This document shows positions 2,140-62,400 of a DNA stretch of 64,000 nt, piece by piece. The position numbers were made by a program, and so were the translations under genes. Source of the DNA: Raja brachyura. Lineage: Eukaryota. The notes under the pieces were generated by a model that saw only the letters and a program-made list of their open reading frames with translations, searched no databases and was not told the origin of the DNA. Position 1 is the stretch's first letter. Each line of letters starts with the position of its first letter. Location: assembly GCA_963514005.1 (NCBI GenBank), contig OY740810.1:19654001-19718000 (forward strand). Reading direction: 5' to 3'.

Positions 2140-2660
2140 CCGCTAAACCTGTACTTACCCCTTTCCAATCCACCCTGCACTTCTCCTCCATCCATCCATC
2201 CTGTACTGATCCCCCATCCATCCTGTACTAATCCACGCTTTCATCCCGTACTGACTCCATTTACCCTGCACCTTCCCCTCATTCATCCTGCACAGACCCT
2301 CCATTCCACACTGTACTGACCCCCCCCCCACCCCCAATTCATCCTGCGCTGATTTCCCCCATCCCCCATCCATCCTGTACTGATCCTCCCATTCAAGAAG
2401 AATGGGGGGAACAGTCTGAAGAAGGGTCTGGACCCGAAACATTGCCTATTTTCTTCACTGCATAGATGCTGCCTCACTCGCTGAGTTTCTCCAGCACTTT
2501 TGTCTACCCCCATCCATCCCATACCAAACCCCCCCATTCAACATCACTGACACCCCCGGTGGTCTCCCCTCACAATTTTACCTACTCCAACCAACACGTA
2601 CTAATTCACCTGCCTCAATCCATCCATTCTGCACTGACTGCCTTCTAACCCCCCCCCCCA
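2140..2660. repeat. Degenerate C-rich tandem repeat (ccatcctgtactga-like units) interrupted by a Penelope-derived short repeat at about 2411-2508
   Basis: Recurrent cctgtact(g/a)a and ccatcc units; embedded gtctgaagaagggtctggacccgaaac...tttgtctac segment. Confidence 0.7.
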
Positions 2661-2699
2661 CAATGGAATGCAACCAAATGTGTTTTAATTCCCTATGTT

Positions 2700-3301
2700 A
2701 TTATTTGTTTTAATCCATAAAGATGGATTAATTAAATTGTGAACACTTGAAACATTTAAACCGCAGAGTTCGATTGTCACTGCTGCCGTTGACACGTTAT
2801 TACAGAGTTCATTTTAACGGCAAATCAATGCTCTAATATGGAGTATCAGTACTGTAGTTATTTAATGAGCAACATTCACAACTATACGTACACATATATG
2901 TTACCATGGTTCAGGATTTATTAACACAGGTTGATCATACGCTGAATAATCCAACCACATTTTTGTTTGGAAGTGGAAAGAACTAATAGAAATTGCATTA
3001 ATTACAATGTGTAAAAAGAGTTGAGATACTGTCTTATAATTTTGCTGCATGTCATTGTGGTATATTTCATGTCTTGATTGGTGAATATGTTTAGTTTGTG
3101 ACTTTATTTGAAGCAGAAATAATATGTGAATGCTTCATTGAGTATATTTCCGACTGGTGACTACGCACTTCGTCCGAGCACATTATCGCATGCGTCATGC
3201 AAGCCATCTTAAATGACCACCTAAACTGTCATTTGGCAACCTAAAAAGCTGCCAAGGTTGCCCGGCTGGCAACAGGGAAAAAAAGTTAAGCGAGAGCCCT
3301 A
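2700..3301. mobile_element. Possible end of a hAT-like DNA transposon
   Basis: Terminates in gttaagcgagagcccta (reverse complement TAGGGCTCTCGCTTAAC, a TAGGG-type TIR) after a ggcaac-rich subterminal region; no partner TIR found and the left boundary is a guess. Confidence 0.35.
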
Positions 3302-9927: not shown

Positions 9928-10208
9928 TGATGTGGAGGCTTTGGAGAGGGTACAGAACAGTTTTGCAGTATGCGGGGGCATTAGTTATAAGGAGAGATCG
10001 GAGAGGGAACTTCCATTGTTTTCTCTGGAGCATCAGAGGATGAGGGAGAACTGTTAAAAGTGTATTACAGCATGAGCATCATAGATGGGGTAGACAAAAT
10101 CTTTTTCCCAGGGCAGCATTGTCAAAGTTAGAGGCTCCAAGGTCAGATGGGAGAAGTTTACATGCAAGGCATGTTTGTTCAAATAGTGGTGGATGTCTGG
10201 AATGCAAT

Positions 10209-11479
10209 TCCCCATTTCCCTGGTCAATTCTTCCCTTCCCTCCCTCTCCACCCCTTCCCCGGGCACTTTCCCTTGCAACCGCAAGAGATGCTACACTTGT
10301 TGCTTTACCTCCCCCCTCCACTCCATTCAAGGACCCAAGCAGTAATTCCAGGTCAGACAGAGGTTCACCTGCACCTCTTCATAACAAGAGGATTTCAGTA
10401 CAGGAGTAAAGAGGTTCTTCTGCAGTTGTATAGGGCTCTGGTGAGACGACATCTGGAGTATTGTGTAAACTTGGTCTCCTAATTTGAGGAAGGACATCCT
10501 TGTGATTGAGGCAGTGCAGCGTAGGTTCACGAGATTGATCCCTGGGATGGCGGGACTGTCTTATGAGGAAAGATTGAAAAGACTAGGCTTGTATTCACTG
10601 GAGTTTAGAAGGATGAGGGGGAATCTTATAGAAACATATAAAATTATAAAAGGACTGGACAAGCTACATGCAGGAAAAATGTTCCCCATGTTGGGTGAGA
10701 CCAGAACCAGGGGCCACAGTCTTAGAATAAAAGGGAGGTCATTTAAGACTGAGCTGAGAAAAAACTTTTTTACCAATTTATGGAATTCCCTGCCACAGAG
10801 GGAAGTGGAGGCCAAATCACTGGATGGATTTAAGAGAGAGTTCGATAGAGCTCTAGGGGCTAGTGGAGTCAAGGGACATGGGGACAAGGCTGGCACAGGT
10901 TATTGATAGCGGACGATCAGCCATGATCATATTAAATGGCGGAGCTGGCTCGAAGGGCAGAATGGCCTCCTCCTGCACCTATTTTCTATGTTTCCTCCAA
11001 CCTCATGTATTGCATCCGCTGCTCTAGATGCCAGCTGATCTATATCGGTGAGACCAAGCGGAGGCTTGGCAATCGTTTCGCTGAACACCTCCGCTCGGTC
11101 TGCATTAACCAACCCGACCTCCCGGTGGCTCAGCACTTCAACTCCCCCTCCCATTCCGTATCCGACCTCTCTGTCCTGGGCCTCCTCCACGGCCAGAGTG
11201 AGCAACACCGCAAATTGGAGGAACAGCACCTCATATTCCGCTTGGGGAGTCTGCATCCTCTTGGCATGAACATCGAATTCTCTCAATTTTGTTAACCCTT
11301 GTTGTCTCCTCCCCTTCCCACCTCTCCCTCAGCCCTCGGGCTCCTCCTCCTCCTTCTCCTTTCTTCCCCCCGCCTCCCCCCACCAATCTGAAGAAGGGTT
11401 TTGGCTCGAAACGTTGCCTATCTCCTTCGCTCCATAGATGCTGCTGCACCCGCTGAGTTTCTCCAGCATTTTGTGTACC
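10209..11479 (+). mobile_element. Penelope-like element 3' part with GIY-YIG endonuclease and terminal repeat
   Basis: PGTFPCNRKRCYTC..FTCTS joined across an insertion to SNLMYCIRCSRCQLIYIGETKRRLGNRFAEHLRSV..PVAQHFN..EQHLIFRLGSLHPLGMN; flanked by a 12-bp TSD ctggaatg(c/t)aat at 10197-10208 and 11480-11491. Confidence 0.9.
10377..10991 (+). mobile_element. Younger CR1 3' fragment inserted in the Penelope element
   Basis: ORFs 10147-10482 and 10484-10906 (FITRGFQYRSKEVLLQLYRALVRRHLEYC..RRFTRLIPGM..RTRGHSL); ends in ttttctatgt and splits the Penelope reading at FTCTS|SNLMY. Confidence 0.92.
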
Positions 11480-13740: not shown

Positions 13741-13745
13741 GCCTT

Positions 13746-13920
13746 CCTACAGCGCCATCAGCGGTTCGGAGTCGCCTGAAGCGCCCTCGGCGGTTTGGAG
13801 TCGCCTGCAGCGCCCTCGGCGGCTCGGAGTACCTACAGCGACTTCAGCGGTTCGGAGTTTCTCCAGCTTTTTGTGTAACCCTCAGCGGTTCGGAGTCGCC
13901 TGCAGCGCCCCCGGCGGCTT
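13746..13920. repeat. 29-bp GC-rich minisatellite (about 5.5 units)
   Basis: Units cctrcagcgccctcggcggttcggagtcg start at 13746, 13775, 13804, 13832 and 13899. Confidence 0.9.
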
Positions 13921-15548
13921 GATGGTGAAAGTAAAATAAAAGCAGGTGAAAGAAAGCTGAAATCAAAATATTAAAAACACTCAGCAGGTCAGGCAGCATT
14001 CACAACTCACCCCACGTGGATTTCAATTTCGAATTTCATCTGCACGATTCGGCTCCACCAGATCACAGATATGCTGAAATTGTCTAGCATTTGTCAAGGC
14101 AGAGCCTCGTCTCATCCTGAGACGCCCTTAATGCATATACATGCTCTCTTTACAATTAAAACACAGACTCACTTGATCTCAAAATTGCCATGTTCCGTAG
14201 TTCTATTAATATTTACTCTTCTATTTTCTATTATTTCGTCGCCACATTCAGTGCTGTTATTGGTGACTTTTCCCTTCCTTTCTGACAGGATAAATCACAA
14301 ACTTCAATTGTTACATTCCAAAACCCATCCAGATTTTTGTCCCATTTCAGTTTTTTTCTGATCCACTCCCCTTCCAGTCTCACGCCTTGCTGTTGACATC
14401 GCCGATCATTATTTTCTATTTCTGTCCACTCCGTTTACACATATTTTCCTTCCTTCCCCGTTCAGCACCATGAAGGTTCATGCCTTTGCTACTGAAAAGA
14501 GACAACAAAGTGCTGGAGCAACTCAGCGGATAAGGAAGCATCTCTGAAGAACATGGACAGCCATCGTTTCAGGTCGGGACCCATCTTCAGACTCAAAGCG
14601 ATACTGCCTTAACGCGCTGAGTTACGTTGTGTCATTTTTCGCAGTTCCTTGTGTCCACATGGCTTTGCTGCTCCCTCGCTGGTCTGTTCTTCAATTCCCA
14701 CCAACCACCTTCCGTCTTATGACACTGAGTATACGTCCCTTTGCAACTGCCTGAGGTGCAACACCCATCTATTGAAGGGTATGGTACTGTCCGAACAAAG
14801 AGACCAGTTGCAATCTTTTCTGGCACAACATAGCAGTTGAGTGGTTATCAGTTTAGTGTGATCGTTTCGCTGAACACCTACGCTCAGTACGCTTTGGCCT
14901 ACATGATCTGTACCTTTTCATACCTCTGGTTTTCTTCTCCCCGACTCTCAGTTTGAAGAAGGGTCCCAACCCGAAACGTCACCTATCCCTTTTCTCCAGA
15001 GATGCTGCTTGACCCGCTAAGTTGCTCCAGTATTGTGTGTCTATTTTCAGTGTAAACCAGCATCAGCATTTCCTTCCTACACAATTTAGTGTGAATATTC
15101 AGTGAAGCAGTGCCTGTATCTTAAGGGGTTCAAGAACTCAGGGAGAGTTGAGGACAGAAATGCAGTTGCTAATTCATGAAGCTGACATCATGGGATTCAC
15201 TTCATCCTGCATTGTAAAATTGCAATATTTAGTAAAACCACTATTTCAATCTATTAGAAGTCGCACCACATTGCGTCGTTTACTATTCCTATTACTCCTC
15301 TCACAGGGCAGCAAGAGAATAATAACAAGCCAGTCGAGACAGTCAATGGACAGTGGCTCTGAAGCACATGGAGTAGTGCGACCAAGGTGAACCGATGGAC
15401 TGCATCAAAGTGTCAGGGCAAGGTGGAAGCAGTGTGTGGAAATAAAAGTAAAAGGTTTTGAATCATGCACAAACATAAAGCACCATTGTATTAGGGGAAA
15501 GCCATTCATTTTTTGCTAGTTCATGGCTGATCGATGATTCATCTCCAT

Positions 15549-16450: not shown

Positions 16451-18099
16451 ACAACCTAGCTCGCTGGAACAGAGAAGCAGCAGCTTAACCAGCTGCGCCA
16501 CTGTGGCTTTGATCTGTATCATCCTTGTTACCTCAACCTAACAAAATACTATTCCTGAATATTCCTGTTCACAAACCCGCAGCTTCTGAAAGAGAATTAC
16601 AATTTTTTTTTGACGGGAGAAAATATTTCCTGTTTGTATTCCTTAATTTAGGGCAATGGAATTGGCGCAACATAGATGCAGTAGGGTCGATCCTGACTAG
16701 GGGTGCTGTCTGTACCTAGTTTATACGATATCCCCGTTAACGCATGGGTGCTCCGGTTTCCTCCCACATGCCAAAGACTTCCTGGTGTGTAGTTAGAATT
16801 TGTCCCGAGAGTGTAGGACAGTTTTCGTGTACGGGATCGCGGACATGCGCGGACATCAAAGGTGGAGTAACTCGGCAGATCACACGGCATACATAGCATC
16901 TCAGGAGAAAAGGAATAGGTCGAAATTCTCATATCGCTAAGCTATATGGGAACTTATGTGATCGGAATACTACTCAAATTGATCATGTGTAGAGTTACTA
17001 AATTGAGCGCATATGAAGGAACTGCAGATGCTGGTTTAAACAGAAGATGGACACAAAATGCTGGAGTAACTCAGCATCTCTGGAGAGAAAGAATGAGTAA
17101 CGTTTCGGGTCGAGACCCTTCTTCAGACTCTCTGGGCAGCGTTTCGTGTCGAGACCTTTAATGAGTGTAAGTGGGATTAAATTTAGTGACTTGCTTGGTA
17201 TGGTAATTACAGCTGGACAGGCTCTCAACCTTAACAATGAGGAGGTCAACATCATCATTAAGTTTAATAGCCACACTTAGAACTCAGGGAACACTTAAAA
17301 GCTTATTAACAAATTGGTTCTAGCACACTAGAAAAAACGCCCATTTTCTGTGACTCAAGTGCAGCAGTGTGAATTGAAGCAGAGAGACTTTTTTCCTCTG
17401 GCTGGAGCGACTAAAACGAATGAGTATTCATTTCAAGGGGTCGGCCATTTAGGACAGAGATGAAGTATAATTCTTCACTGGGATGAATTGAGAATATTTA
17501 TAATTTCCAACCCCAAGGGGCTGTGAGTGTTCAATTGATTACTGTTCAAGACTTGAGAGTGATAGATTTAAAAAAAAAGGGATGTGGGAATCAGGATGAT
17601 CAGAGTAGAGCCAGATATGATTTTATTCAGTCTTTGGGTAGGCTTGAGAAACCACTTGGCTTACACACAGAGTGAAGCCAGTGCATCGGCTGTGCCTGTG
17701 AGCCACTTTGTAGTTGGATTCTGACACTGTAACCAAAGTTAGTCCAAGGCAAAGCTCATTACAACTAGGCAAAAATTGAGAGATTAAAATAAACTCCCCA
17801 CACAAATCTTTGGACCTTAAGATCAGTCATTACTATCCCATAAAATAACTACAGGCTTTGTTGACTTTTTGCTCTGACTGGAATAATTACAGCAGGTGAA
17901 TTCCCTTGTGTCTGAACTTTTTGCATTTTGTTTTCACAGAAAGTGAAACTTCCCCACCAATCTTAACTGTATGGAACCCCAATAGAGTGGGCTTAAAACA
18001 ATAATGATTTTGGAAACTGGGGAGAGGCTATGGATGTCTAAACCTTTGTCCAGCAGCTTCTGTGGTCAGAAACATTTATATGGATCTCTAATGTAGGAA

Positions 18100-19340: not shown

Positions 19341-19498
19341 TTGTTTAAGTAGGAACTGCAGATGCTGGAAAATCGAAGGTAGACAAAAGTGCTGGAGAAA
19401 CTCAGAGGGTGCAGCAGCATCTGTGGAGCGAAGGAAATATTTCCTTCGCTCCATAGACGCTGCTGCACCCGCTGAGTTTCTCCAGCACTTTTGTCTAC
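19341..19498. mobile_element. Palindromic Penelope-derived short insertion inside a degraded minus-strand CR1
   Basis: Inverted arms of about 60 bp centred on ggaaat|atttcc (19433-19444); 15-bp TSD cttga(t/c)atatacttt at 19326-19340 and 19499-19513. Confidence 0.85.
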
Positions 19499-20924: not shown

Positions 20925-21016
20925 CTGCCCTGCGCTGTATGGCAGACTATGACTTGTTGTTAAACTAATAGATAAGAAACAACAAAATCACTAGTCTTCC
21001 AAACAGAAGTGAGCCA
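20925..21016 (-). ncRNA. mir-7: pre-miR-7 hairpin (miR-7 family; flanks resemble the mir-7-3 type)
   Basis: Minus strand 21001->20978 reads UGGAAGACUAGUGAUUUUGUUGUU (exact mature miR-7-5p). An 18-nt loop follows, then star arm CAACAAGUCAUAGUCUGCCAUA at 20959->20938. Basal cugu/acag pairing, CNNC (CAUC) 16-19 nt after the 3p end, basal UG at -15/-14. Confidence 0.98.
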
Positions 21017-24106: not shown

Positions 24107-27029
24107 CTGCAAAGCAGAACTACCAATTCAGTGAGTGGGGCTAATAAGCGCCAACTTTGCATGGTGTCTGGGAGTCAAGGGAAGGTGCCATGCATTTCCC
24201 ATTATTTATGGGATTTAGTGTCCGTGACTACGTTTTCTGGACTGGTGAGGATTCCAGACCTCACTTCATTTCTGGTGAAGACCTCCAGCAGCAGTAACGA
24301 TAATACATTACATACATGCTCAATTAAATCTCTTATGATGCCTGTGGCCTCCATGCATGAATATATCGTTGGCACTGTAAACTGCAATACAATTTACCCA
24401 GAGGTTCCCATTGCTTTTAGTAATCCTTTTTTTCAAATCAAGACCAATTACGTTGCATGTAAAAGTTATGTGCAACAATATATTTTTTTGTACATAGTCT
24501 CCTCCTCCCTCTAAAAAAATGGAAGATATCCTAATGTTATCAGCAGATTTCACAATTGGCCTTATGGCACTAATCCTGTAATTCACGATAACTCACACCA
24601 TGAAGCACTTAAAAATTAGGAAGTCACCAGACAACCTTGCTGTTTAGCTCAGCAATATCATATCGCTGACGCACATTAGAAAGTCAAACACTGTTTAAGC
24701 AATTACTATTGGCCTCAACGTCCTGGGCAGGAACTCCTGTGTGGGTCATAGTGCAGTGAATATGAAGGACCGTGAACACGGGCAGGATCTACCAATATAA
24801 TGATATACCCCTTGTCAGAGTATCATAGTGTCATCTGGAGACAAATCAGTGTGATCAAGGAAGCCAATTTGTGATTGGGGCCAGAGTTGGATCTGTGAAA
24901 AATCCTCTAATAAGTTCCACTATGAAAGAACAATGACCTTTGCACATTTGACAAACTCATGTCTACGCTGGTCTCAAGGCATCTCACATTAACTTACTTG
25001 GTGTTACTGATACAAAACAAAATATAGAAAACAAGTGAATCTCTACATATTACCAATGTCTAGCCGCAGGTGCTGGTAATGGAGGATGGGTGGGTTATAA
25101 CCATAGGGAGTTAAGGATTTGTGGCTTATGCTTGGTGAGGACTCCTGTAAATACATAAGTGAGATGGCCCCACCCCTGCAGTCAACCCATCTCTTACCAT
25201 TTCCAAGGCCACATAGGCCTTCTTTTGTCAGACTTTGACACTCCCTCCTCCGCTGGTCCATTACATTAATTACACCACTTTCCACCTCATGTATTTCATT
25301 TGTTTCAGCGTCACATTTTCCCTCTTCTTTGCCACTCTGAAACTATGACAACCGGAGACTAAACAAATGGAATCATAGTAATCTGAAACATAATTGGAAA
25401 AGATGTTGTTAAATCTGCAGCTTATAAAGGTTCACGCATTGAAGGGATGGCTCTTCAGAAGCACCTGCAAGAAGTGTCCTTGTATGTATAGTGGGCACAG
25501 GAAACTGCCGAGAATTTATGGTATAAATCTAGGCTCCCTGCTAGAGTGTAGGATCACAAAGGAAGTCTCACAAGGTGCAAGCCTTTGAGTTCCATCATCC
25601 CAGCGAGAGGGTCTGAACATCGGGCCGCCCGTTGCGGCAACTGCGAGGGGCTCGGGAGCCCCCCGACCACGGGTGAACAACAGAGGACAACAGAGGAGGA
25701 TGACTGAATTTTGGAGCCTTCCCTCACAGTGGGAAACTTTGATTCCGCTGTGTGGGGATGTCCGTGTTACAGACTATCGTGTTCTGTGCTCTATTATTCG
25801 TATGGCTGTATGGTGACCACACATTTCACTGTACCAATTGGTACACGTGACAAATAAATGTATCTTGTATCAATATGTCTCAAATTCACCAATTCAAAAT
25901 AAGTTTGATGTTAGCTGAACCACACCAGGAATGAGCTTATCACTACTCTTGTATGAAACTATTCTGAAAGCTAATTTAACAATTAAAATAATGCATTTTT
26001 GCCTTCATTACAATGTGGTAGAAGTTCTTCTCTTCTAATGTCTACTCCTTTCCAGATATTGATTCAAGGCAAGAATTCCAGGCCTGTATGACGGGTTGGT
26101 TGATACAATTTGTATTAATATAGCACTTTAAAACATGTCCCAAGAAACTTAACAAACAACTAATCAAGCAACGTGATGAGTCTTAGAAATATTAAAGTAT
26201 ATGGCCAGGTTTGCTAAGCAATATACTGTAGAAAGATCCTCAGTGGGGGTGTGGGAGTAAGGAAATAGAGACTTTGGGTGGGGTTTTCCAGGCAAAGAGC
26301 TTATGTAACTGTAAAAGTGAAGACGTTAAAGAACAATGGGATGCAGAAAAGTTATTCAGAAACAGTGGAGTCCTAGGGCACAAGGAATTTACACAAATTG
26401 AGAGGATTCCTGGAAATGAAGGTTAAAATTTCAATGTAGACTCTCTGCCAGATTGCGAGTATGGTGATGAATGAGCAGGACTGGATTTGAATCTGCATTC
26501 TCTAAATGAATTATTGTTTACAATGAGTACAAAGTGGACCAGAGAATCAGAATACATTGGGAGCTGCAACCGTGGGACCCTGCAGGACATATCATCATGG
26601 AGCTGGCGATCCCTGTCGGGGATCGACCTTAGAACTCCAACCGCGGGAGCCAGTGGACTTTAACGTCATGGACCTCGCGGTACCTGGTTAGGGACCGACT
26701 TCGGGAGCTCCAAGCCGCAGGAGCTTCAACCGCCCCGATTGCGGGAGCTTCGATCGGCCCAACGTGGGAGCTTTGATCACCCAGACTGTGAATATCTCCA
26801 CTGCCCTGACCGCGGGAGGATAAAGAGGAGGAAGATAGGACATGATTGTGTTCCATCACAGTGATAAATGTGGGGAATCTACTGTAGTGGATATTTATGT
26901 TAAGTTATGTAGTTGTGTGTCTTGTTGGTTTTTTTAGTATGGCTGATTGGGAATTCGAGTTTCACTTACCTTGATTGGTTACACGTGACAATAAACAGAC
27001 CTTTGAACCCTTTGAACCTTTGGATTCTT

Positions 27030-27853
27030 ATGCATCAGCGAGACCAAACGTAGACTGGCCGATCGTTTCACTGAACACCTTTGCTCAGTCTGCTTGGACC
27101 TACCAGATCTCCCGGTTGCCAAACACTTTCATTCCCCTGGGTTACACAAAAAGCTGGAGAAACTCAGCGGGTGCAGCAGCATCTAAGGAGTGAAGGAGAT
27201 AGGCGACGTTTCGGGTCGAGACCCTTCGAAGAAGGGTCTCGACCCGAAACGTCGCCTATCTCCTTCACTCCTTAGATGCTGCTGCACCCGCTGAGTTTCT
27301 CCAGCTTTTTGTGTAACCCTCGATTCTCCAGCATCTGCAGTTCCTTCTTTAACACTTTCATTCCCCTTCCCATTCCCACACTGACATTTCTATCCTAGGC
27401 CTCCTCTATTGTCAGACTGGCCAAACACAAATTGGAGGAACAGTATCTTATATTTTGCTTGTGCAGCTTACAACCCCGTGGTATGATTATTGATTTCTCT
27501 AACTTTAAGTAACCCCTGCATTCCCTCTCCCTCCTCCACCCAAGTCATACTGGCTTCAAAGTCGTCCTGTTGAGTCTCATTGTCTGTACTCGTTCTCACC
27601 TAATGAACGCTAACAATGGCCCATTTCCTTTATCATTGTTACTTTTTTGCATATCATTCATTCATTGTTCTTTATCTCGCTACATCTCACCTTCTATATC
27701 TCTTGTTTCCCTTTCCCTAGACTTTGTCTGATGAAAGGATCTTGACCCGAATAGTAGTTCATTCCATTTCTCCACAGATGTTCTATGACCCGCTGAGCTA
27801 CTCCAGCTTTGTGTCTATCTTCGGTTTAAACCAGCATCTGCATTTCCTTCCTA
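27030..27853 (+). mobile_element. Degraded Penelope element (GIY-YIG remnant plus terminal repeat) with a nested palindromic insertion at 27139-27350
   Basis: gagaccaaacgtagactggccgatcgtttcactgaacacct parallels the ETKRRLGNRFAEHL coding sequence near 11050; 17-bp TSD aacactttcattcccct at 27122-27138 and 27351-27367. Confidence 0.85.
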
Positions 27854-29329
27854 CCTATTGCATACCCAGACTGCTCTCATACAACATTATCTGTCAGTCT
27901 GTGAAGAGGCGCCAAATTCAGGTTGTACACTCATTTTTGTCTACATATGTGTGCAGGTACCTTGCTATTTGGTACGTGGATGGGCAAATTAATAACAATA
28001 TTTCAGTGCCTTTTCAGTAAATCTGACTTCACATATTGATGGCTTTAATGTAGGGTTACTATGACATTAGTTACTTAGCAACAGAGAATGACAACATCGG
28101 GTGTTTGGCCTTCTAGATTGCAAGCGTAGTCTGCCTACACCCTCCGGCAGGTCGGTGACGGTAGTTAAGATTCTAAACCCACACACAAACAAGGATTCTA
28201 ATTCTGTTACACAGCCCAGGAAACAAAATGTGCTCTCGACATAATTCACTCCCCAAGGCTTGCCCAAATACACCCAGGTTTAGCAGTTGCATCTTATTAC
28301 TTCTTCATGTACCAATTCTTCAGCCACAATGTGCCTGTGCCTTTGCATGCTCTTCCTAATCACCTCTGTTATGGCCCTTAATCCATTTTTCCAACTGTAC
28401 TTGGTCATCTCCAGCCTTAATCATTTAATTACATTAATCCCCTTGACTGGCCTTCTTTGTATGAGCTCTGGGATGTGTTTGTAGTGAGAGGTGCTCTGGC
28501 AACACAAAGCTATTGCTCAGGCTGGAAGTGAAGCGTGATCTGTTTGAGGATGAACACCTGGAGACCCTCAGCGTGCTGACTGTATTCATTGATGTTGCCC
28601 TCCCCCAACCAATTCTGCTCCATACCAATGGATCTAGAAAGGGCAGCAAACAGCAGGAAACCGAATGCACACCCTATTGATCTTTGCTCTCGAACTGCCT
28701 CCCACTTCAGACGGCTAATCAAACACAGTTACCTGCTGTAGTCATGTTCATGCAGCACACTGCCATGACAACAGTGCTGTGATTCACACCCAGAATTACC
28801 TACTTTTTTTAAAAAGGGATCTTAATGAAAAATATTAGGGAACCAGTAAATTACATAAATTAGAGTTCAGTGTTACAGGGATGGTAACTATTCTTGTTGA
28901 AACAACTTTTTAAAAAATATATTGATCAAAGTTCATTATCCAAAATTATTTACAAAAAAAATACTTCTGACCCTGCTCCCTTTACTCCCTCAAATATTGC
29001 TCTCATAGACACTGAACTTTGCTAAAGTTTTGATTCATAGCTTTTAGCAGGACAACTAATCATGGAGTCAAGTTTTGACAGGACAGAAAGGGATTTAGAC
29101 ACAAAATTAAAAATGAAGTCAAATTCCTCCATTTCACTACCTTTCTCATTAAAGATTTACGACAGTTTCACCTCATCAGTTCAATGAGGCAAGAACATTT
29201 CACATTCTAAAAATTCTCTCATGTGCCCTCCTCATTCACAAATGTATATTATTTAAAAATTACAAACCTGTGGAAAATATTTTTTCTCTTCACTGTCAAA
29301 TTGCTTTTTAACTTTCAAAATCACAGTTC

Positions 29330-35359: not shown

Positions 35360-36490
35360 ATTAGAAACATTGAAAATAGGTGCAGGAGGAGGCCATTTGG
35401 CCCTTCAAGCCAGCGCCACCATTCATTGTGAACATGGCTGATTGTCCCCTATCAATAACCTGTGCCTGCCTTCTCCCCATATCCATTGACCCCACTAGCC
35501 CCTAGAGCTAACACTCTCTTAAATCCATCCAGTGACTTGGCCTCCACTGCCCTCTGTGGCAGGGAATTCCATAAATTCACAATTCTCTGGGTGAAAATGT
35601 TTTTCCTCACCTCAGTCTTAAATTACCTCCCATTTATTCTAAGACTGTGGCCCCTGGTTCTGGACTAGCCCAACATTGGGAACATTTTTCCTGCATCTAG
35701 CTTGTCCAGTCCTTTTATAATTTTATATGTTTCTATAAGATCCCCCCTCATCCTTCTAAACTCCAGTAAATACAAGCCCAGTCTTTTCAATCTTTACTCA
35801 TATGACAGTCCCGCCATCCCAGGGATCAATCTCGTGAACCTATGCTGCACTGCCTCAATCACAAGGATGCCCTTCCTCAAATTAGGAGGCCAAATCTGTA
35901 GACAATACTCCAGATGTGATCTCACCAGAGCCCAATACAAATGCAGAAGAACCTCTTTACTCCTATACTGAAATCCTCTTGTTATGAAGGCCAACATTCT
36001 ATTAGCTTTCTTCATTGCCTGCTGTACCTGCAAGCCAACCTTTAGTGACCGGTGTACAAGGATGCCCAGGTCTCGCTGCACCTCCCCTTTACCTAACCTA
36101 GCCTCATTGAGCTAATAATCTGCCGTGGAGTAGACAAATTGTTAAAGAAGGAACTGCAGATGCTGGAGAATCGAGGGTTACACAAAAAGCTGGAGAAACT
36201 CAGCGGGTGCAGCAGCATCTAAGGAGCGAAGGAGATAGGCGACGTTTCGGGTCGAGACCCTTCTTCAGACCCCCCCTTGTTTTTGCCGCCAAAATGGATA
36301 ACCTCACATTTATCTATATTATACTGCATCTGCCACGCATCTGCCCACTCACTCAACCTGTCCAAGTCACCCTGCAACCTCCTAACATCCTCTTCACAGT
36401 TCACACTGCCACCCAGCTTTGTGTCATCCGCAAACTTGTTAGTGTTGCTCCTAATTCCCTCTTCCAAATCATTAATATCCCTCTTCCAAA
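35360..36490 (-). mobile_element. CR1 LINE 3' part interrupted by a Penelope-derived repeat (about 36140-36270)
   Basis: ORFs 36219-36494(-) INDLEEGIRSNTNKFADDTKLGG..LQGDLDRLSEWADAWQMQYNIDKCEVIHFG and 35794-36081(-) QRDLGILVH..LEYC.. Confidence 0.93.
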
Positions 36491-36727
36491 TCATTAATAT
36501 AATTAATTGTTTAGTAAATTAGGGCTTGTTAAAAAATCCTTGTATATAATCTTCTCCAAGGAGTGGAATGTGTTTTACCCAGGCTGCTTCTTTAGACAAC
36601 ATTTATACCCTCTTCAAGAATATTGTTTTTCACCTCTGCTGCACTGAATTACATACACACATATTTTAGTTTATAAAACAATATTTGTGTGGGTTCTTAA
36701 TGCATCTATTGTGATGAAGAAACTCAC

Positions 36728-38107: not shown

Positions 38108-38197
38108 CTGAAGAAGGGTCTCGACCCGAAACGTCGCCTATATCCTTCGCTCCTTAGATGCTGCTGCACCTGCTGAGTTTCTCCAGCCTTTTGTGTA
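38108..38197 (+). mobile_element. Short Penelope-derived insertion beginning at the hammerhead-like core
   Basis: ctgaagaagggtctcgacccgaaacgtc..tttgtgta, flanked by cccatg(c/g)tgcc duplications at 38098-38108 and 38198-38208. Confidence 0.85.
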
Positions 38198-49973: not shown

Positions 49974-50271
49974 TTTTTTAAATATTTCAAAATAGACTTT
50001 ATTCAAGTAATAAATATATACAATACATCAACCGTGCGAAAAATCCATCCAACATTTTCGGAGGCTATACAAATTGCTCCATACAGTCTATACACATTTT
50101 TCAAATTTCGCGAATCGATCCCCCACCCGTGCCACTCATGTGGCCCCCCGGCATGGGATACCTTCCCTTATTTTGAGGGGCGTCTCCACCATACTGTGCC
50201 CCCCATGTCCAGCAGCGGAAGGACCTTAGACTGTGGCCCTCCCCCACCGAGCCTTGGCGTTGGCTGCACCG
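49974..50271 (-). mobile_element. 5'-truncated L1/Tx1-like insertion with poly(A) tail and 17-bp TSD, inside a Penelope-derived repeat
   Basis: Minus strand GAANAKARWGRATV*, AATAAA and A tail; TSD aggtggtgtttcgagtt at 49957-49973 and 50272-50288. Confidence 0.85.
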
Positions 50272-54033: not shown

Positions 54034-55790
54034 CAAACAACTGTGAATAGACTCAGAATGCTGGAGTAACTCAGTTGGTCAGACAGCATGTCTGGAGAAA
54101 AGGAATAGGTGACGTTTTGGGTTGAGACCCTTCTTTAGACTGAGAATCAGGGATACATCTCACTGTGGTCTGCTTTGTTTTACCTAATCTGAACAGCCTG
54201 CTTGCTGATTAAAGGTAGTAAATAACATCCCATTGTTAGTCTTAGTGAGATTTGTTTGAATGCTTAATAGTATTAAAGTTAATGGAAATGGAACATTCTA
54301 TATTAGTGGCAAGAAATTATATTTTCTCTATTTCTCCAGCTTTATGTGAATCTTGAAAAAAACAAAAATACTACTGGGTATAAAACCCACTTTGGCAATA
54401 AATCTTGAAACCTTGTCCATCTTTCCTATGATCAGCAAAAAGAAAATTGAACATGATATATAATGAGAGGCAGTGGTGTTATCAGTTTTGCAATTCTAAT
54501 CAGGGAAATTTTGCCTTGATATTTGCAGCAAGAATTAAATCAATGCTGTTATATAGCGCTTGTGAAAATTCTCGCCAGGCAGGAACGCTCCTTACCTAGA
54601 TAGTCAGGCTTGTTCTATTCTGTATTGCGGCCTGAATAAAATGGTTTAAATTGTAAATAAAAGGGTCTACTCTTTTAAACAAGTTCAACTTATGGTTTAC
54701 TCATGGACAACCAAAAACAATAGAGTCATAGTCATAGAGTGATACAACTTGGACAACCAGAAGCAATTGAGTCATAGAGTCATAGAATGATACAACATGG
54801 GCCTTCGGCCTAACTTGCCCACACCGGCCATATCCCAGCTACACTAGTCCCACCTGCCTGCGTTTGGTCCATATCCCTCCAAACCTGTCCTATTCATGGA
54901 CCTGTCTAACTGTTCCTTAAACTTTGGGATAGTCCCAGCCTCAACTACCTCCTCTGGCAGTTTGTTCCATATACCCACCACCTTTGTGTGAATAGTCTGA
55001 CCAGAAATCAAATTCAGTAACTCAGTTCAGTTCAATTGCTCAAGCTATAACCAGGAACACGAGTTGGTCCGGACTGCTAAGGGCAGACTAGTTTGTCCTC
55101 TTGATTTCTATAAATGTTGTACTAATCCTGCAGGCTTCAACCAATGTCGTTTCTGCGACTCCAAAGGCAACCATTTGTCAGGAAGATGACAAGGTTTTGA
55201 ATTTTACAGCATAGAGAAAATCATTTGCTATCGCTCTCTTAACAAGGTATCCACTCAAACTGACTTGCCTCATCTTCACCAAACAATTTTTCATTTATTT
55301 TAATCAATGCAGACACCAGTTTTTTTGCATCAAAATGTTTTGGTCCTGAGCATGAACTAGATTTTGAAATGAAATTTGCTCCAGTGTCTCTCGCCTTGTC
55401 AAATAAGCCCAAACAGTACCCTTAATTTGTGGCTTCAATTGCATTGGATTCCTTCCTGAAGCACAACTTTAAATTAGACTAATTTCTAACAAAACCTAAC
55501 ACACGGGCTGTATGGATTTAATTCAGCTTTCTGCATTCAAATGTTAATCTTAAATTCTATTCTGTATATCCTGGCAAGCCAGTGTCATCAATGGGATGTT
55601 ATTTACTACCTTTAATCAGCAAGCAGGCTGTTCAGATTAGGTAAAACAAAGCAGACCACAGTGAGATGTATCCCTGATTCTCAGTCTAAAGAAGGGTCTC
55701 AACCCAAAACGTCACCTATTCCTTTTCTCCAGACATGCTGTCTGACCAACTGAGTTACTCCAGCATTCTGAGTCTATTCACAGTTGTTTG
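54034..55790. repeat. Perfect 202-bp inverted repeat (arms 54034-54235 and 55589-55790)
   Basis: Base-by-base comparison shows the arms are exact reverse complements; spacer 1353 bp. Confidence 0.95.
54720..54990 (-). mobile_element. CR1 3' fragment with duplicated (gagtcata)n tail
   Basis: gagtcata repeats, ggcccttcggcc-like end, ccatatccctccaaacctgtcc, actacctcctctggcag. Confidence 0.8.
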
Positions 55791-57379
55791 CATAATGTAG
55801 GTTTCTGCTCTCACTCCATCACATTTTCTATTTTCCACCTTCCCTCACTTTACCTTTGTCAGTTTTCAATTCTTCCCTTCCTTTTGAATTGTAGTGAAAG
55901 GGAGAAGAAGATTTTTTACTATTTCTAACAATTCTCTTGAAACCCCATTGATCTGAAACATCAAGGTTTGCTGTCTCCACAGATGCTGCCTGATGTGTTG
56001 AGCATCAGAGACTTTTGTTTTTACTGTCCAAAATATATAGTGAATGCTCAAGTACAATGCCAGCCCAAGATCACACCATGCCAGAGAGAAGTTGAGATGC
56101 CAACACAGTGAATCTGTAACTAATTGAAATAAATTGATTAGGAATAAACAGGTTTAAGTGGGTAAATAGAGGCAGTGCACATTTAAACCCAATGGCATGA
56201 ACACGGCTCTCTCAATTTTAGGTAACACACCCTCCTCTCTCTTCTTCCGCCCACCCCTTTCTGTGGACCACCTGGTCTTGCACTCTTTCTCCCCTCCATC
56301 TTCCCCTCTCCCCTTCCACCTAGATTTCTTCCTTTAGCTTCACAATTTGCATCTCTTCAATCTGTCGCACACCATCTTTTCACCTCTAGCCTTAGCCCAC
56401 CATCTGCCTATGAACAAACCCCTTCCCCCCCACCTCGATCAACCTATTCCCTGCCAGGATTCTTCATGCCCCCCCTCCCCCACACAATCGGTCTGAAACG
56501 TCACCTATTCATGTCCTCCAGAGATGTTCCCGAACCGCTGAGTACTCCTGCACTTTGTATCTTTTTTGTAAAGCAGCATTTGTATTTCTTTGCATTCATC
56601 TGCACTATACAATTCTAATTGACACTGGTTGCATAGAGTATAGTTTGGAAAGCTAAACAAATCTAATAAATTAGTGGCCTTCTGTTAACGAGTGGTCTTC
56701 TCAAGTAAAACGTTCTTCCTGCATTTCATTCAGTTCATTTTTCAAATAATCGAAATAAGAATCTAAATAAAAGTAGGATCAAAGACAAAAACGCCTCAGA
56801 GCAAAGACTATTCGAATACAAGGACTGCAAGAAGTCTCACTCCAGCAGAAAGATTATGGCATTTGTAGCGATGTATTTAATGATCAAAGTACTCAGAACA
56901 TGAGCACATACCACACACACAAATCCACTGCAGGATCTAACTCAGAATGTTGATTTATTTTCCCTTTAGACTCTTTCTGACTGGCTTGCCATGTATTTCC
57001 CGTTTTAGTTCAGATTTCTTTAAATGCCCATGTTTTTGTTGCCGATATTTTTGTTTGCCTAGATTTTACCAAACAATTGCAGGTTGCTTGAACCGTAGAA
57101 TTCGCCGCATGGCCGTCCTGGGACTCGCTGCAAACATATTTGCTACAACATTTCTCCACCACTCACCCATCCACCCGGCACTGCAGCGCTAGAAATATCT
57201 GCTTGTTTACCAAGAGTTGCACTACGTTTGAGTTTCATGAAAACTATCTTAAATGAGTTTACCATATGTCTTGTAAATTTCAAAGCAGCAGGAAATTAGT
57301 CGTGCGAGCGGGAGGGCGGTGGTATAAGTTAAAATACACGAGATTGAATAATTTCTGCCCAGACCATTATAATATAACG

Positions 57380-58020
57380 TGTCGGAAGGAACTGCAGATA
57401 GTTTCGGGTCGAGACACTTCTTCAGACTGACCAGTCTAAAGCAGGGTCTCGATCCGAAATGTCGTCCATTCCTTCTCTCCAGAAATGCTGCCTCACTCGC
57501 TGAGTTACTCCAGCATTTTGTGTCTACTTTCGATTTAAACCAGCATCTGCAGTTTTTTTCTTACACAAAGGAACTGCAGATGCTGGTTTACACCGAAAGT
57601 AGACGGAAAATGCCGGAGTAACTCAGCGGGCGAGGCAGCATCTCCGGAGAGAATGAATAGGTGACGTTTGGTGTCGAGATTGTTCTTCACCGCGGGTCAT
57701 GTAAACCCGACACGAAGGGATGTGGAAAATTGTGGCTTTTAATATAACGGAAGTAGACACAAAATACTGGAGTTACTCAGCGGGACAGGCAGCATTTGTG
57801 GAGAGATGGAATGGGTGACGTTTCGGGTCGAGCCCCTCGTCAGTCTTCCATTTAAACCAGCATCTGCAGTTCTTTCCTCCGCTTTTAATACAACGCCGGA
57901 ATTAGAAATTGTAAACAGTGATACGTAAGAAGGAACTGCGGATGCTAGTTTACACCGAAGATTGACATAAAATGCGAGAGCAAATCAGCAGGACGTTTCG
58001 GGTTGAGACCCTTCTTCAGA
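57380..58020. repeat. Cluster of about 5 Penelope-derived short repeats in alternating orientation
   Basis: Repeated gaaggaactgcagatgctggttta, ggagtaactcagcggg and gacgtttcgggtcgagacc blocks. Confidence 0.85.
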
Positions 58021-59438
58021 CAAATAGGGATGTTGTGTGGGAAGTAATTGGTCAGATTGTAAATCATTTCATTGGCTGCTCTTTATGCGACGTGGAAGTT
58101 TACAACTTCATTTTTATTTTGCGGTTATAAATCCTGCAATAAACCACGAGTAGCTTCAATAACACAGCTGGGAAGCTAGCAGTGGCTTCTGTAAACACCT
58201 GCTCCCGTAGCCTTGCAGGTCACTTCCGCCTTTTCATTCGCTACCCTTTAACGCCAAACCATTGTTTAACATCAATTGGAACATTTTACGTCAATTGTTA
58301 AAACATTCGCAACAAGCAAATAACAAAAAGCAAATCACATGGGACAAGAAACGTACACGGTTAATGTTTCGATTAATATTTATAAAATGCACGTGTTCAT
58401 TCTGTTGAACAATATCCTCAGCTATTAATCAAATAATTAAACAAGTTATATGGGACAGTAATTTTTTACATTTTCGGTTCATATTTATAATTTAAGTCAT
58501 GTTACATTCTATTCCACAAATGTAAACAACATATACTGAAATCTAGTTTTAGTACCATAATTGTTAAGTTGCCTCAATTTCGACAATTTAAGATTGTTTT
58601 TTTAATAACTGCCCCAAATTGGGGTCATGGCATTTAAAATCTATTCTCCCACAATTTTGCCAGGATTACTGCCTGGAAAGATCAGCGAAAGTCTCAGTTG
58701 TAAATGCGAATAAGAAATAAAATCGAAAACAGTCGCCAACCCGCAGCTGAAAGAGCTGGTTGGAGATCTCTAGATGCTGCGGAATCCGTTTAGCGTATCC
58801 AGAATTTTTCACTCGGTTTTAAAATAATTTATATTTAATGCACTAAACGTATACACAATGCGTGATATTTAGAACAACTAATTTGAAGGTCAAATACATC
58901 AATATTCTATTTTGATATGACCATGTATATTGAAAATATTATTCCCACATTGTTAAACAGATGCAAACTTGAAGTGTAAATCCCGTACTCGGCGATAACT
59001 ACGGCAAAGAAGCAAGCCATTCGGTCCGTCAAACTTGTACTAGCTCTGTGTTAGGGTAATTCAGTTAGTCTCACCATAGATAGACGCTAAATGCTGGAGT
59101 AACTCAGCGGGACAGGCAGCGCCAATGGAGAGAAGGAATGGATGACGCTTCTTCAGACAAACAGGGATGTTGCATGGGATGTAATTGGTGAGAATGGAAA
59201 TAATTTCGCTGGTTGATAGTTATGCGATGTGAAATTTTACAGCTTCATTTTTATTTTGCGGTTATAAATTCTCCAATAAACCACGAGAAGCTTAAAAATA
59301 CAGCTGAGAAGCTCGTAGTGGCTTCTCTCCACACCTGCTCATGTGGCCTTTCAGACAACTTCCGCCTTTTTCATTCGCTACCTTTTAACGTCAAACCTTT
59401 GTTTAACATCATTTGCAACCTTTTACGCCAATTGTTAA
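58011..59438 (+). repeat. Diverged direct duplication of a 291-bp segment (58011-58301 and 59148-59438)
   Basis: Collinear from cttcttcagacaa to caattgttaa; roughly 80% identical by eye. Confidence 0.9.
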
Positions 59439-62400
59439 TATATTTCTGTTCAAACCAGCATCTGCAGTTCCTTCCGACACACATAGTCTCACCCCGTTTG
59501 CAGATCGCTGCTCTAATAACATGCTGTGCAAGTGAAATAAAATCCCCTCGTTGCGAATTACTTCTGTTCTATGCCCTATATTTTTTTTTGAACGGTCCGC
59601 TAATGGGAACAATCTCTCTTCATTTACTCGGTCTCCACCTTCTTGATCGAGCTGCATCTCCGAACTTCTCGCAACTTAATCTGCCCCAAGAACAACTCCA
59701 ACTTCTCTAGGTCCCTCGTCCCTGTAAAGATATTTACCAAATGTTGCACCTTTAAGGCCTTCCCATCATGGCGAAGTGTGATACCAAGAAATGAATACAG
59801 TGTTTCGCACCGCTGCATTGCTTAATTGTGCATGACATAAATATGCATGACTTCCTTGTAAGAAATGACTCCCAGAATCTCACATTTACTTTCCCACATT
59901 CTACAATCTATGCACATACACTCACAGATCTGTTCTTGTCCTCTGAATTGGGCATTTTTCCATGTATTTCCCTTTTTTTTTTTAACTTCGCCATTCCCGG
60001 CATTAAATGTCGTCTGCAACCGATCCACCCATTCCACCTGCCCAACTATCTCTCTTCGTTTACCGGGCCTCAACTTTTGTTTCCACATATACATGTTATA
60101 GTACTCTACTTACACGCGTACTTTTGCTAACAGAGTACTCGATGAATTTAACCGGTAGAGCATCGGGTTGGTGCAGATTCACTGTTCGGGCTAAATAAAA
60201 ATGAAACACTGCAAAGTATAACTTTTTTTTCGGTAGAATCTATTTTCTACGTTCAAAATTCATAAGGACATCATTTCTATTTATCTAATGCATTGCACTT
60301 CCAAACGCTTCAAAACAGGACATCTGAAGAATGTGGCGGTAGGGACTGTAGATGCTGGTTTAAACCGAAGATAGACGCAAAATACTGGAGTAACTCAGCG
60401 GGTCAGACACATCTCTGGAGAAAATGAATAGCTGAAGGGTCTCGACTCGAAACGCCACCTATTCCCTTTCTCCAGAGATGCTGCCCGACTCGCTGAGTTA
60501 CTCCAGCTTTTTGTGTCTATCTGAAGTATGTGCTCGTTTCTGAAATTAACTAGAATTTGACCAACCCGGTATCGACATCTGCTGCCGCCGCTCCTATCCG
60601 CCTTGCCGCTGTGCTCCATAGAAACGGCTCCTCTGGTCTTGACTCTGGAGACAGATTCATGTGGTTACCCATCGACAGCATCTCGAATAAAAGAAACAAG
60701 ATATATACTAAATATGTATTTCTCACATTCAACTCGCATCATTGATACAGGTGAAAGCATCAAGCGAATAGATTGATAAGAAGGGTAACACGGAGAGAGA
60801 AGGGAATGCAGATGCACTAAAACATTCTAGCGAACCGGGCAACATCTCTCAACATGGATAGGTGACGTTTCGGGTCGGGCATGGTGGCGTTGCAGAAGGC
60901 TGGAAAAGAGGTGCGAGATGCCAGGCTTTGTCCTGCCCCTCCTCTCTTCCTGCTTTCCCCCCTTCCCTACTATAATCAGTCTGAAGAGGGTCTCGACCCT
61001 AAACGTCACCTATCCATGTTCTACAGAGATACTGCCTGACCAGCTTAGTTACTCCAGCATTCAGTGTGTTTTTTTTGTGCTAAAAAATGGTCTTATTTTA
61101 AAAGTAAGCAAGCCACCGGGTCAACGTGTTACAGAAACCAATGATACAAACACAACCCATCCTGCAGAGCGGGGTCATGCTCAGGACGTAAGTGGCATTA
61201 AAACAGCCTATAAATTGTATCGGAAAGATGCTCCGAGGCCCTCGGGAAGAGATGGAGATCAATAATTTGTACCCAAAAGGTCCAAATTATCTACAGCCAG
61301 CTCAAGGGTAAGATGACGTGGCTTCAACAGTCGGCAAGCAACTCGAGAGACTTTGGTAGTGGAACAATTTGTGCAATTTCACGTCAGATTTAGGTAACTA
61401 CCTCAAATCGATTGAGTTGCCTCACTGCAGGTGGGATTCCTCCGTTTATACATTGAACACCCCATTCATCCTTCATCCCAAGACCCCACTCCGGGCGCCA
61501 GCACACGCGTACGCAATCAGCAGGCGGTGGTCTTCCTTCGCCCCTGTGATGGGGAAGGGGGGCAAATGATGGAAACAATATTATTTGTTAAAGCATTTCT
61601 TTAAAGCAGTGTTTTAAAGAGCCATTGCTATTGGCAATAACCTTGACAATAGCAAAACTCAATAATGGAAAGGTCAAGAACCTGTGTGCACATCTGCTAA
61701 GGGAATATATTGTAAAATATTACGATTTTAGTGACCATTTAACACAAATCTGTTCAGATTGGAAATTATATTTCTCAGAAATTGAATTCTGATACTAATT
61801 CTCTCACCATTTGTCATGCCGGTCCTTGATGTTACATGCTGCAAATATTAAATTGCCAGGCTCTTGGCCGGCGGCTGTGCTATTCAAGTCTATAGTCAAG
61901 GTTTCACATTTTACCCCTTAGGTTCTATTCTCAAAACTAAGAGAAGGTCCGAGGACGTTTTCAGTCGGGATCTATCAAAATTAGTAAACTCATTAAGCTG
62001 TTTCCTCCGGGATTCAGTTTCCAGCAAACTTCTCAATTCATTTATTTTACCCGAGAAATTTCCAGTGGTAATCTGCATCAATAATAATTAGAGAGGTTCG
62101 TGAGAAAACCCATCCCCTATTTTCCCACCCAATAATAACGTAAACATATAAACGTAAACACATATAGGAAAGGCACGTACTTTAAAAGGCCACCCTACTG
62201 ATTTTTAAAGTTGTATAATTTAATCACAGCATATTCACTGATGATCAGCTTCCTGGCTACTGATTTGTATGTCTACTCTCACCTCGGCTCCAACCATTAA
62301 AAAAAAACAAGTTTATGTTTATAATTTGCAGTAAAAATTAAAATAGGATTGTTGCTTTAACAAATATTCATTTGGCTTAATAGAACCTGAATCAAACTGG

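What the first reader, a model, noticed from the sequence alone, without database searches (positions are those of the whole stretch)
2416..61010. About 25 short repeats carry a minimal hammerhead-ribozyme-like core: a retrozyme-like family tied to a Penelope element
Seen: the most abundant short repeat contains CUGAAGA-A-GGGU(CUCG)ACCC-GAAA-CG-UC. Intact or near-intact copies lie at 2416-2443(+), 11388-11415(+), 17099-17126(-), 36241-36268(-), 38108-38135(+) and 57992-58019(-), with many decayed ones. The same motif sits just 3' of the GIY-YIG ORF at 11388. Known: the hammerhead core is CUGANGA-stem II-GAAA-stem III-UH; Penelope-like elements carry minimal type I hammerheads with a reduced palindromic helix III that can act as dimers; an extra nucleotide after A9 is a natural variant (CChMVd). 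Here helix III is the palindrome ACGU with a GUC/GUU triplet. The 17.1-kb copy has a 4-bp helix I (GAGU/ACUC), and the 11.4-kb copy keeps stem II through G-U wobbles. Inference: a very high-copy non-autonomous, potentially self-cleaving retroelement family, with copies inside the putative miR-7 host introns.
Basis: partly seen in the sequence, partly recalled or inferred. Interest (0 to 1): 0.75.

Follow-up and report, generated by a model that had tools for sequence, protein, structure and literature searches.

The report
Penelope-element minimal hammerheads in skate repeats
The repeats are real but of a known kind: they are the end pieces of Penelope-type jumping genes in what is likely a skate genome, each carrying the small hammerhead-ribozyme motif described for these elements in 2014, and most copies are decayed and likely do not cut themselves.

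Summary
Observation confirmed: 41 profile hits (0 in controls), 25 with a recognisable core; exactly the six named copies pass a strict minimal-hammerhead descriptor. They are 3' ends (pseudo-LTR plus optional ~35-nt tail) of Neptune-type Penelope-like elements (PLEs): both subfamilies are joined to GIY-YIG sequence, 5 of 8 head-to-head pairs carry 12-17-bp target-site duplications, and 14 of 32 arms have the tail. The motif is a genuine conserved structure: 32 of 65 distant PLE relatives carry it ~100 nt after the endonuclease, with compensatory changes in helix I; one family matches the published Acropora Neptune hammerhead. 'Retrozyme' fails its defining tests: no tandem arrays, minimal rather than canonical ribozyme, no RNA ends at the cut site in one polyA run. 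No covariation among window copies; the consensus helix I is only 2 bp; complete same-strand cores are at least 9 kb apart. miR-7 is real, its host gene unshown. Unexplained: most short copies begin within 5 nt of the core. One insertion carries 285 nt of a neighbour's flank. This scan noted the same thing in four other (shark) windows. Known class, new member.

The parts
10209..11479 (+). 5'-truncated Neptune-type PLE copy (subfamily A) without tail, between a 12-bp target-site duplication (10197-10208 / 11480-11491, 1 mismatch)
10262..10381 (+). RT-EN linker with CX4CxxC Zn-finger-like motif (one in-frame stop)
   Evidence: tblastn 67-74% to ray and skate PLE proteins P0005, P0002
10377..10994 (+). 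LINE-like insertion splitting the PLE ORF; 89% identical, inverted, to 35364-35989
   Evidence: LINE identity is inferred from the translation, no Pfam hit
10996..11295 (+). GIY-YIG endonuclease, C-terminal end of the PLE ORF
   Evidence: (88% to a Leucoraja erinacea protein)
11388..11415 (+). minimal hammerhead in the pLTR, 92 nt after the stop codon; stem II with two G-U pairs, helix I 1 bp
2416..2443 (+). minimal hammerhead, palindrome lost; copy 2412-2509 without tail
17099..17126 (-). minimal hammerhead with 4-bp helix I formed by flank; copy 17002-17129 with tail
36241..36268 (-). intact minimal hammerhead; young subfamily A copy 36136-36271 with tail
38108..38135 (+). intact minimal hammerhead; young subfamily A copy to about 38201 without tail
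57992..58019 (-). hammerhead core with deletion right after the cut site (no helix I); copy 57921-58021 with tail
27022..27858 (+). older subfamily B PLE end: GIY-YIG pieces 27022-27141 and 27371-27509, about 215-nt pyrimidine-rich spacer, decayed hammerhead at 27728, tail
27139..27350 (.). young head-to-head pair inserted into the older GIY-YIG; left arm without tail, right arm with tail; 17-bp exact target-site duplication (27122-27138 / 27351-27367); arms fold into an 88-bp hairpin
19341..19498 (.). head-to-head pair, both arms starting 3-4 nt after the cut site (no core); tail on one arm; 15-bp duplication, 1 mismatch
60336..60518 (.). head-to-head pair, tail on one arm; 14-bp duplication, 1 mismatch
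57750..57880 (.). inverted copy without tail joined to a tail-only arm; 15-bp duplication, 1 mismatch
14491..14657 (.). decayed head-to-head pair; 12-bp duplication, 1 mismatch
14862..15081 (+). subfamily B copy with a 48-nt GIY-YIG remnant at its 5' end and tail; 13-bp duplication, 1 mismatch
   Evidence: 81% to 27063-27110
59076..59483 (.). likely PLE-mediated transduction: hammerhead copy (-), 285 nt that are 84% identical to the upstream flank of the 58021 copy, and an inverted tail; 10-bp exact duplication found only at 59066 and 59484
20926..21016 (-). mir-7 precursor (neighbour, no functional link shown)

Best explanation
The repeats are the 3' ends (pseudo-LTR with its minimal hammerhead, plus an optional ~35-nt tail) of Neptune-type Penelope-like retroelements, likely inserted by the element's own endonuclease and reverse transcriptase, and the individual copies are likely decaying and mostly not self-cleaving. 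Shown in the sequence: joins to GIY-YIG coding DNA, two fixed 3' ends about 65 and 100 nt after the cut site, head-to-head pairs with the tail on one arm, 10-17-bp target-site duplications, and conservation of the hammerhead with compensatory changes across distant PLE families. Inferred by analogy with the Anolis PAc element: the enzyme nicks both DNA strands, starts reverse transcription at either of two internal RNA sites (giving copies with and without tail), usually stops at the 5' edge of the hammerhead, and two such cDNAs are joined head-to-head. The hammerhead was likely under selection in the master elements (weak, dimer- or protein-assisted cleavage of the precursor RNA), and uncleaved RNA was likely the main template, because most copies keep the core upstream of the cut site.
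For: Both subfamilies joined to GIY-YIG sequence at 11388, 27728 and 14953. Linker CX4CxxC and homologs with RT + GIY-YIG; Neptune/Nematis are defined by this linker (PMC8557442 passages). 5 of 8 inverted pairs have 12-17-bp duplications against 10 of 300 random boundary pairs (a sixth match was within-element sequence and is not counted). 14 of 32 arms that reach the first 3' end carry the tail. 32 of 65 relatives' loci with at least 300 nt downstream carry the motif 77-162 nt after the endonuclease, 0 of 65 antisense, 0 in 20 shuffles; on 29 distinct rows 97.4% of cells pair, all 3 helix I pairs change on both sides, 0 of 500 shuffles reach the score (stem II pairing was required by my descriptor, helix I was not). 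Subfamily A and B majorities differ at 0 of 28 hammerhead positions and 13 of 64 downstream positions, p=0.008. Same motif consensus and an identical Acropora Neptune example in PMC4209133 Fig. S3. Two RT start sites, tail, protein-assisted and dispensable hammerhead in PMC11167929.
Against: No full-length or intact PLE ORF lies in the window and no genome is held, so the masters were not seen. The 5' ends are more tightly clustered than random truncation suggests: only 5 of 25 anchored copies keep the pyrimidine tract, and 11 of 12 tested copies stop matching within 5 nt of C3, which would also fit a separate short master. Subfamily B has a stop in the frame that is open in three subfamily A copies with tail. 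The A-versus-B identity also covers the non-catalytic loop II. Core positions in copies are somewhat less mutated than downstream ones (11 of 201 against 206 of 1755 non-CpG sites, p=0.006; p=0.08 against 129 of 1385 once subfamily-variable columns are removed), so some selection on copies is not excluded.
Confidence: 0.75

Rival explanations
1. Most short copies (above all subfamily B) come from discrete non-autonomous, SINE-like masters of about 130 nt that start just before the hammerhead and are mobilised in trans by the PLE enzyme.
For: 5' ends cluster at -5..0 of C3 in 11 of 12 tested copies, 5 more start inside the core; stop codon in the candidate frame of subfamily B; the 59076-59483 insertion shows that the module can carry unrelated sequence; reads cover the post-hammerhead part about 6-25 times more deeply than the GIY-YIG part in run X24.
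Against: Subfamily B sequence is also joined to GIY-YIG DNA (27022-27858, 14862); several B copies keep 15 to more than 100 nt of upstream pLTR; no internal promoter was identified.
Confidence: 0.17
2. A non-LTR retrozyme family: tandem units self-cleave, circularise and reinsert by rolling-circle reverse transcription.
For: Hammerhead-bearing, non-coding, high-copy; retrozymes derive from PLE pLTRs and occur in the one chondrichthyan sampled (bioRxiv 10.64898/2026.07.22.740005); one partial head-to-tail piece at 17140-17165.
Against: No tandem array of the unit; pairs are head-to-head; complete same-strand cores are 8,972 to 26,720 nt apart; minimal, not canonical ribozyme; no molecule starts or ends at the cut site and no joint with raw-read support among the 15 joint rows shown for run X24 (77 rows not shown).
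Confidence: 0.05
3. The hammerhead likeness is chance in an ordinary short repeat.
For: No Rfam hammerhead match; folding z-scores between -1.1 and +1.1; no covariation among 22 window copies (101 of 500 shuffles reach the score).
Against: Same motif at the same position in 32 of 65 distant relatives with compensatory changes and identity of one family with a published PLE hammerhead.
Confidence: 0.02

Closest known systems
Minimal hammerheads (min-HHR) in pLTRs of metazoan Penelope-like elements (Cervera and De la Pena 2014, PMC4209133); nearest listed example Acropora digitifera Neptune
   Same: Core CUGAnGA, extra base before G10.1, G10.1-C11.1, GAAA, palindromic CG loop, UH; position about 100 nt after the GIY-YIG stop; mostly single, 5'-truncated copies, some in opposite-strand pairs; thousands of copies in coelacanth and Xenopus.
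   Different: Host is likely a skate (no shark or skate row in the Fig. S3 alignment or Table S1 as read); helix I is only 2 bp plus a mismatch, against 3-6 bp in 26 of 32 relatives; local density of about one hit per 1.6 kb.
Poseidon element PAc of Anolis (Frangieh et al. 2024, PMC11167929)
   Same: Two 3' end classes separated by a 30-40-nt tail downstream of the hammerhead; no RNA-seq ends at the cut site; hammerhead just upstream of a candidate ORF start.
   Different: Neptune-type linker here; candidate ATG lies 22 nt after the cut site (unproven), not inside the ribozyme; nothing tested biochemically here.
Adineta vaga Penelope insertions (Arkhipova et al. 2013, PMC3846280)
   Same: Inverted pLTRs, optional tail on one end, 8-10-bp duplications, solo pLTRs, unrelated DNA captured between pLTRs.
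   Different: Low copy number there; longer pLTRs (about 200 bp).
Non-LTR retrozymes (Cervera and De la Pena 2020, PMC7229834; Li et al. 2026 bioRxiv)
   Same: Non-coding, hammerhead-bearing, PLE-related repeats.
   Different: No tandem arrays, no canonical hammerhead, no circular RNA shown.

Membership tests
Minimal type I hammerhead of PLEs | Core CUGAnGA...GAAA...UH with stem II closed by G10.1-C11.1 | tested here: met
   6 copies pass the descriptor, 2 hits in 20 shuffles
Minimal type I hammerhead of PLEs | Extra nucleotide between A9 and G10.1 | tested here: met
   A in 22 of 23 copies covering the column; 32 of 32 motifs in relatives
Minimal type I hammerhead of PLEs | Palindromic 15.2-16.2 in place of helix III | tested here: met
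   5 of 6 descriptor-passing copies; 27 of 32 relatives
Minimal type I hammerhead of PLEs | Helix I of 2-6 bp | tested here: inconclusive
   Window majority gives 2 bp then a mismatch; relatives 3-6 bp in 26 of 32 with compensatory changes
Minimal type I hammerhead of PLEs | Location in the pLTR downstream of the GIY-YIG ORF | tested here: met
   92 nt (11388) and about 215 nt (27728) after the stop; 77-162 nt in relatives
Minimal type I hammerhead of PLEs | Self-cleavage as dimer or with protein | not testable with these tools
   No pile-up of RNA ends at the cut site in one polyA run, a weak test
Penelope-like element, Neptune clade | C-terminal GIY-YIG endonuclease after a PLE-type RT | tested here: met
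   GIY-YIG in window (just under cut-off); RT only in homologs P0013, P0017, P0024 (weak RVT_1), not in the window
Penelope-like element, Neptune clade | CX2-5CxxC linker between RT and EN | tested here: met
   10262-10381; the motif is shared with Nematis, and no RT tree was built
Penelope-like element, Neptune clade | Inverted 5'-truncated copy, optional 30-40-bp tail, target-site duplication | tested here: met
Penelope-like element, Neptune clade | Full ORF between two direct pLTRs (partial tandem) | not testable with these tools
   No genome held; none in the window
Non-LTR retrozyme | Head-to-tail tandem repeats with at least two complete hammerheads | tested here: not met
   (window only)
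Non-LTR retrozyme | Canonical type I hammerhead with 6-bp helix I and loop-loop contacts | tested here: not met
   helix I 0-4 bp; no Rfam match
Non-LTR retrozyme | Abundant circular RNA | tested here: inconclusive
   polyA library is unsuited; 'goes back' joints occur in the large, likely DNA contig sets too

The most novel reading that the evidence does not exclude
The short copies are 'strong-stop'-like cDNAs: the PLE transcript would start at an initiator-like TCAGT three bases before the hammerhead core, so internal priming 65 or 100 nt past the cut site yields a complete 95-130-nt product that integrates on its own. This would explain the clustered 5' ends, the 2-bp helix I (only three 5' bases available) and the large excess of short copies, would make the hammerhead a 5' cap-removing switch (a few arms start 2-4 nt after the cut site), and would turn every solo copy into a handle that lets the PLE enzyme move flanking host DNA, as seen at 59076-59483.
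Probability: 0.25. Interest if true: 0.5.

Novelty: new member of a known kind. Interest (0 to 1): 0.22.

Why it matters
As a class it is known since 2014. It extends minimal PLE hammerheads to a likely skate genome at high density (6% of this window). The value lies in the anatomy: two fixed 3' ends, one-sided tails, duplications around inverted pairs and 5' ends at the ribozyme give in vivo footprints for the two-start-site mechanism shown in vitro for Anolis PAc, and a large natural sample for the open question of what PLE hammerheads do. Young head-to-head pairs would form long hairpin RNAs when transcribed.

Tried and rejected
Whole-genome analysis: no genome held. Rfam: no hammerhead match at gathering level in the window or at E<=10 in 36000-38400. 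Exact motif scans: 0 in metagenome contigs, 0 in viral contigs, 1 in prokaryote genomes (L001; not examined, treated as chance). Single-strand folding: 8 sequences, z between -1.11 and +1.08; a two-copy cofold did not give the dimeric hammerhead as minimum-energy form. Covariation among 22 window copies: none. RNA ends at the cut site: none listed among 8,400 laid reads of run X24, whose organism may not be the window's; the depth dip at 11336-11371 is a skipped repeat and was not used. Host gene for miR-7: no KH-type or other recognisable exon by eye in 126 frames of at least 35 aa in 18000-26500; 14 chosen window ORFs gave no Pfam hit; the whole window was not scanned. A shared spliced first exon upstream of the core: rejected, upstream flanks are unrelated. 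The candidate N-terminal peptide was not seen at the start of the 9 full-length or long relatives read, which are too distant or incomplete to decide. The 57384-57567 'duplication' was within-element sequence and dropped. The 2017 paper on dimer-cleaving PLE hammerheads (recalled as Luense et al.) is not held; nothing here rests on it. Literature searches for hammerhead + Penelope + shark, hammerhead + skate and Penelope + elasmobranch + skate found no description of this family in the held library, which lacks most subscription papers and repeat databases.
Full report
Observation. A profile built from 12 copies finds 41 hits (21 +, 20 -; 6.0% of the window) and none in 5 shuffles or the reversed window. 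25 hits can be anchored at the core. A strict minimal-hammerhead descriptor returns exactly the six named copies, against 2 hits in 20 shuffles. The repeat is longer than the core: about 65 nt follow the predicted cut site up to a first 3' end, and 14 of 32 arms that reach it continue with a ~35-nt tail. mir-7 is at 20926-21016(-). I found no host exon (not an exhaustive scan) and no strand bias, so the link to miR-7 is proximity only.

What the repeat belongs to. The frame 10996-11295 is a GIY-YIG domain (just under the Pfam cut-off) whose closest relatives are skate and ray proteins (88% to a Leucoraja erinacea protein), so the host is likely a skate. tblastn places the upstream part of the same ORF, with a CX4CxxC linker, at 10262-10381, separated by a LINE-like insertion. 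That linker marks the Neptune and Nematis clades (PMC8557442, passages read); longer homologs carry RT and GIY-YIG. A second, older GIY-YIG end at 27022-27509 runs into a subfamily B repeat at 27728, and a 48-nt GIY-YIG remnant heads the copy at 14862. So both subfamilies are PLE 3' ends. Eight head-to-head pairs were examined: five have 12-17-bp target-site duplications (10 of 300 random boundary pairs give such a match), and by my reading of the sequences six have the tail on one arm only, one on both, one on neither. This is the described PLE insertion anatomy (PMC8557442 passages; PMC3846280 passages and Discussion).

Is it a real hammerhead motif? Within the window there is no covariation (22 copies, 101 of 500 shuffles reach the score), as expected for copies that decay after insertion; G-U pairs at 11388 are common transitions. 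Between subfamily majorities the 28-nt motif is unchanged while 13 of 64 downstream positions differ (p=0.008; loop II is unchanged too). The decisive test came from relatives: of 80 metagenome loci with GIY-YIG domains 43-57% identical in their best segment, 65 had at least 300 nt downstream; 32 of these carry the motif 77-162 nt after the domain, none antisense, none in 20 shuffles. On an alignment of 28 of those 32 plus two window copies (29 distinct rows), 97.4% of cells pair and all three helix I pairs change on both sides; 0 of 500 shuffles reach the score. Stem II pairing was demanded by my descriptor, helix I was not; related rows inflate the counts. One of these families matches the Acropora digitifera Neptune hammerhead printed in PMC4209133 Fig. 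S3, and the window motif fits that paper's consensus, extra base included (main text parts 1-2 of 4 and supplement file 2 parts 1-2 of 3 read; file 1 could not be searched).

Is it active? Not shown. The window majority has only two helix I pairs followed by a mismatch, against 3-6 bp in 26 of 32 relatives. The two 4-bp helices (17126, 36268) use flanking bases. Minimal hammerheads need a partner; complete same-strand cores are 8,972 nt or more apart, and head-to-head pairs would trap the motif in a long hairpin (88 pairs at 27139-27318). Published minimal hammerheads show no monomer and low dimer activity (PMC4209133); the Anolis one cleaves only with protein and is dispensable for insertion (PMC11167929, parts 1-2 of 4 read). 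In raw polyA reads of run X24 (8,400 laid of 7,335,232 records; species relation unknown) the hammerhead region is covered equally on both strands and no start or end pile-up is listed at the cut site. This is a weak test, but fits passive read-through.

Retrozyme? The defining features are head-to-tail arrays with hammerheads, mostly canonical, and circular RNA (PMC7229834 passages; bioRxiv 10.64898/2026.07.22.740005, parts 1-3 of 5 read, supplements closed). No array of the unit exists in the window, and the ribozyme is minimal. It works like a PLE pLTR, and is not filed as a retrozyme.

Mechanism. Inferred from PAc: nicking of both strands 10-17 bp apart, reverse transcription from either of two internal sites, early termination, and head-to-head joining of two cDNAs. 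Shown here are only the products. Most copies keep the core 5' of the cut site, so uncleaved RNA was likely the template; three arms (both at 19341-19498, one at 60448) start 2-4 nt after the cut site and may derive from cleaved RNA.

What stays unexplained. Only 5 of 25 anchored copies keep the pyrimidine-rich upstream pLTR; of 12 copies tested, 11 stop matching within 5 nt of C3 and one at -15; 5 more start inside the core; 2 old copies and 1 duplicate were not tested (two further copies with a deleted core keep long upstream sequence; diverged references may under-call extension). Candidates are an RNA start at the initiator-like TCAGT (an Inr-like motif is reported in Adineta pLTRs, PMC3846280), a 3' splice site (the Drosophila Penelope intron ends next to helix I; PMC4209133, PMC2377424 passages), an RT block at the tract, or a short non-autonomous master. 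The insertion at 59076-59483 holds 285 nt from the flank of the 58021 copy between a hammerhead copy and an inverted tail, inside a 10-bp duplication: likely transduction, a property already reported for PLEs.

Earlier notes of this scan. Four reports on other (shark) windows reached the same class, one also noting short copies that start at the ribozyme; they are unchecked AI notes and were seen after my reading was fixed.

Verdict. Real feature, known class, new member in a likely skate genome; searches found no paper on this family in the held library. Interest 0.22.

Noticed in passing
window 54034-54235 and 55589-55790: A 202-bp inverted duplication at 100% identity, 1.35 kb apart, covering half an old repeat copy plus about 95 bp of flank; a very recent inversion or an assembly artefact.
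   Followed up: partly
window 49870-50307: One repeat copy is split inside the hammerhead by a ~300-bp insertion with an A-rich end and an apparent 15-bp duplication (read).
   Followed up: no
window 40697-40783(-), 43233-43315(-), 37743-37784(+): Older, more distant subfamilies with CUGAUG cores; 40783 has C at position 9 and a possible 3-bp helix I.
   Followed up: partly
window 36138-36218(-): A 27-codon frame from an ATG 22 nt after the cut site is open through the tail in three subfamily A copies but stopped in subfamily B; possible PLE N-terminus as in PAc.
   Followed up: partly
window 10994-11100: In run X24 the GIY-YIG region shows about 3:1 first mates on +, which in a usual stranded library means antisense RNA, while the hammerhead region is 1:1.
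   Followed up: no
window 57370-58060: Dense cluster of at least six arms in 700 bp, including tail-to-tail and head-to-head joins.
   Followed up: partly
L039:2579, L049:1733, L053:3383 (- strand): Distant relatives also carry an inverted hammerhead-bearing copy upstream, and L038 and L049 have a tail resembling the skate tail by eye.
   Followed up: no
window 30937, 56488, 59158, 60434: Several copies lost part of the hammerhead by deletions between short direct repeats inside the core.
   Followed up: no
window 15557-15832, 16163-16449, 22664-22953, 48000-48258: A second, unrelated ~275-bp repeat family, 69-86% identical between copies.
   Followed up: no
window 13746-13884: A 29-bp GC-rich tandem repeat (3.9 copies) directly followed by a 30-nt fragment of the repeat's 3' end.
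   Followed up: no
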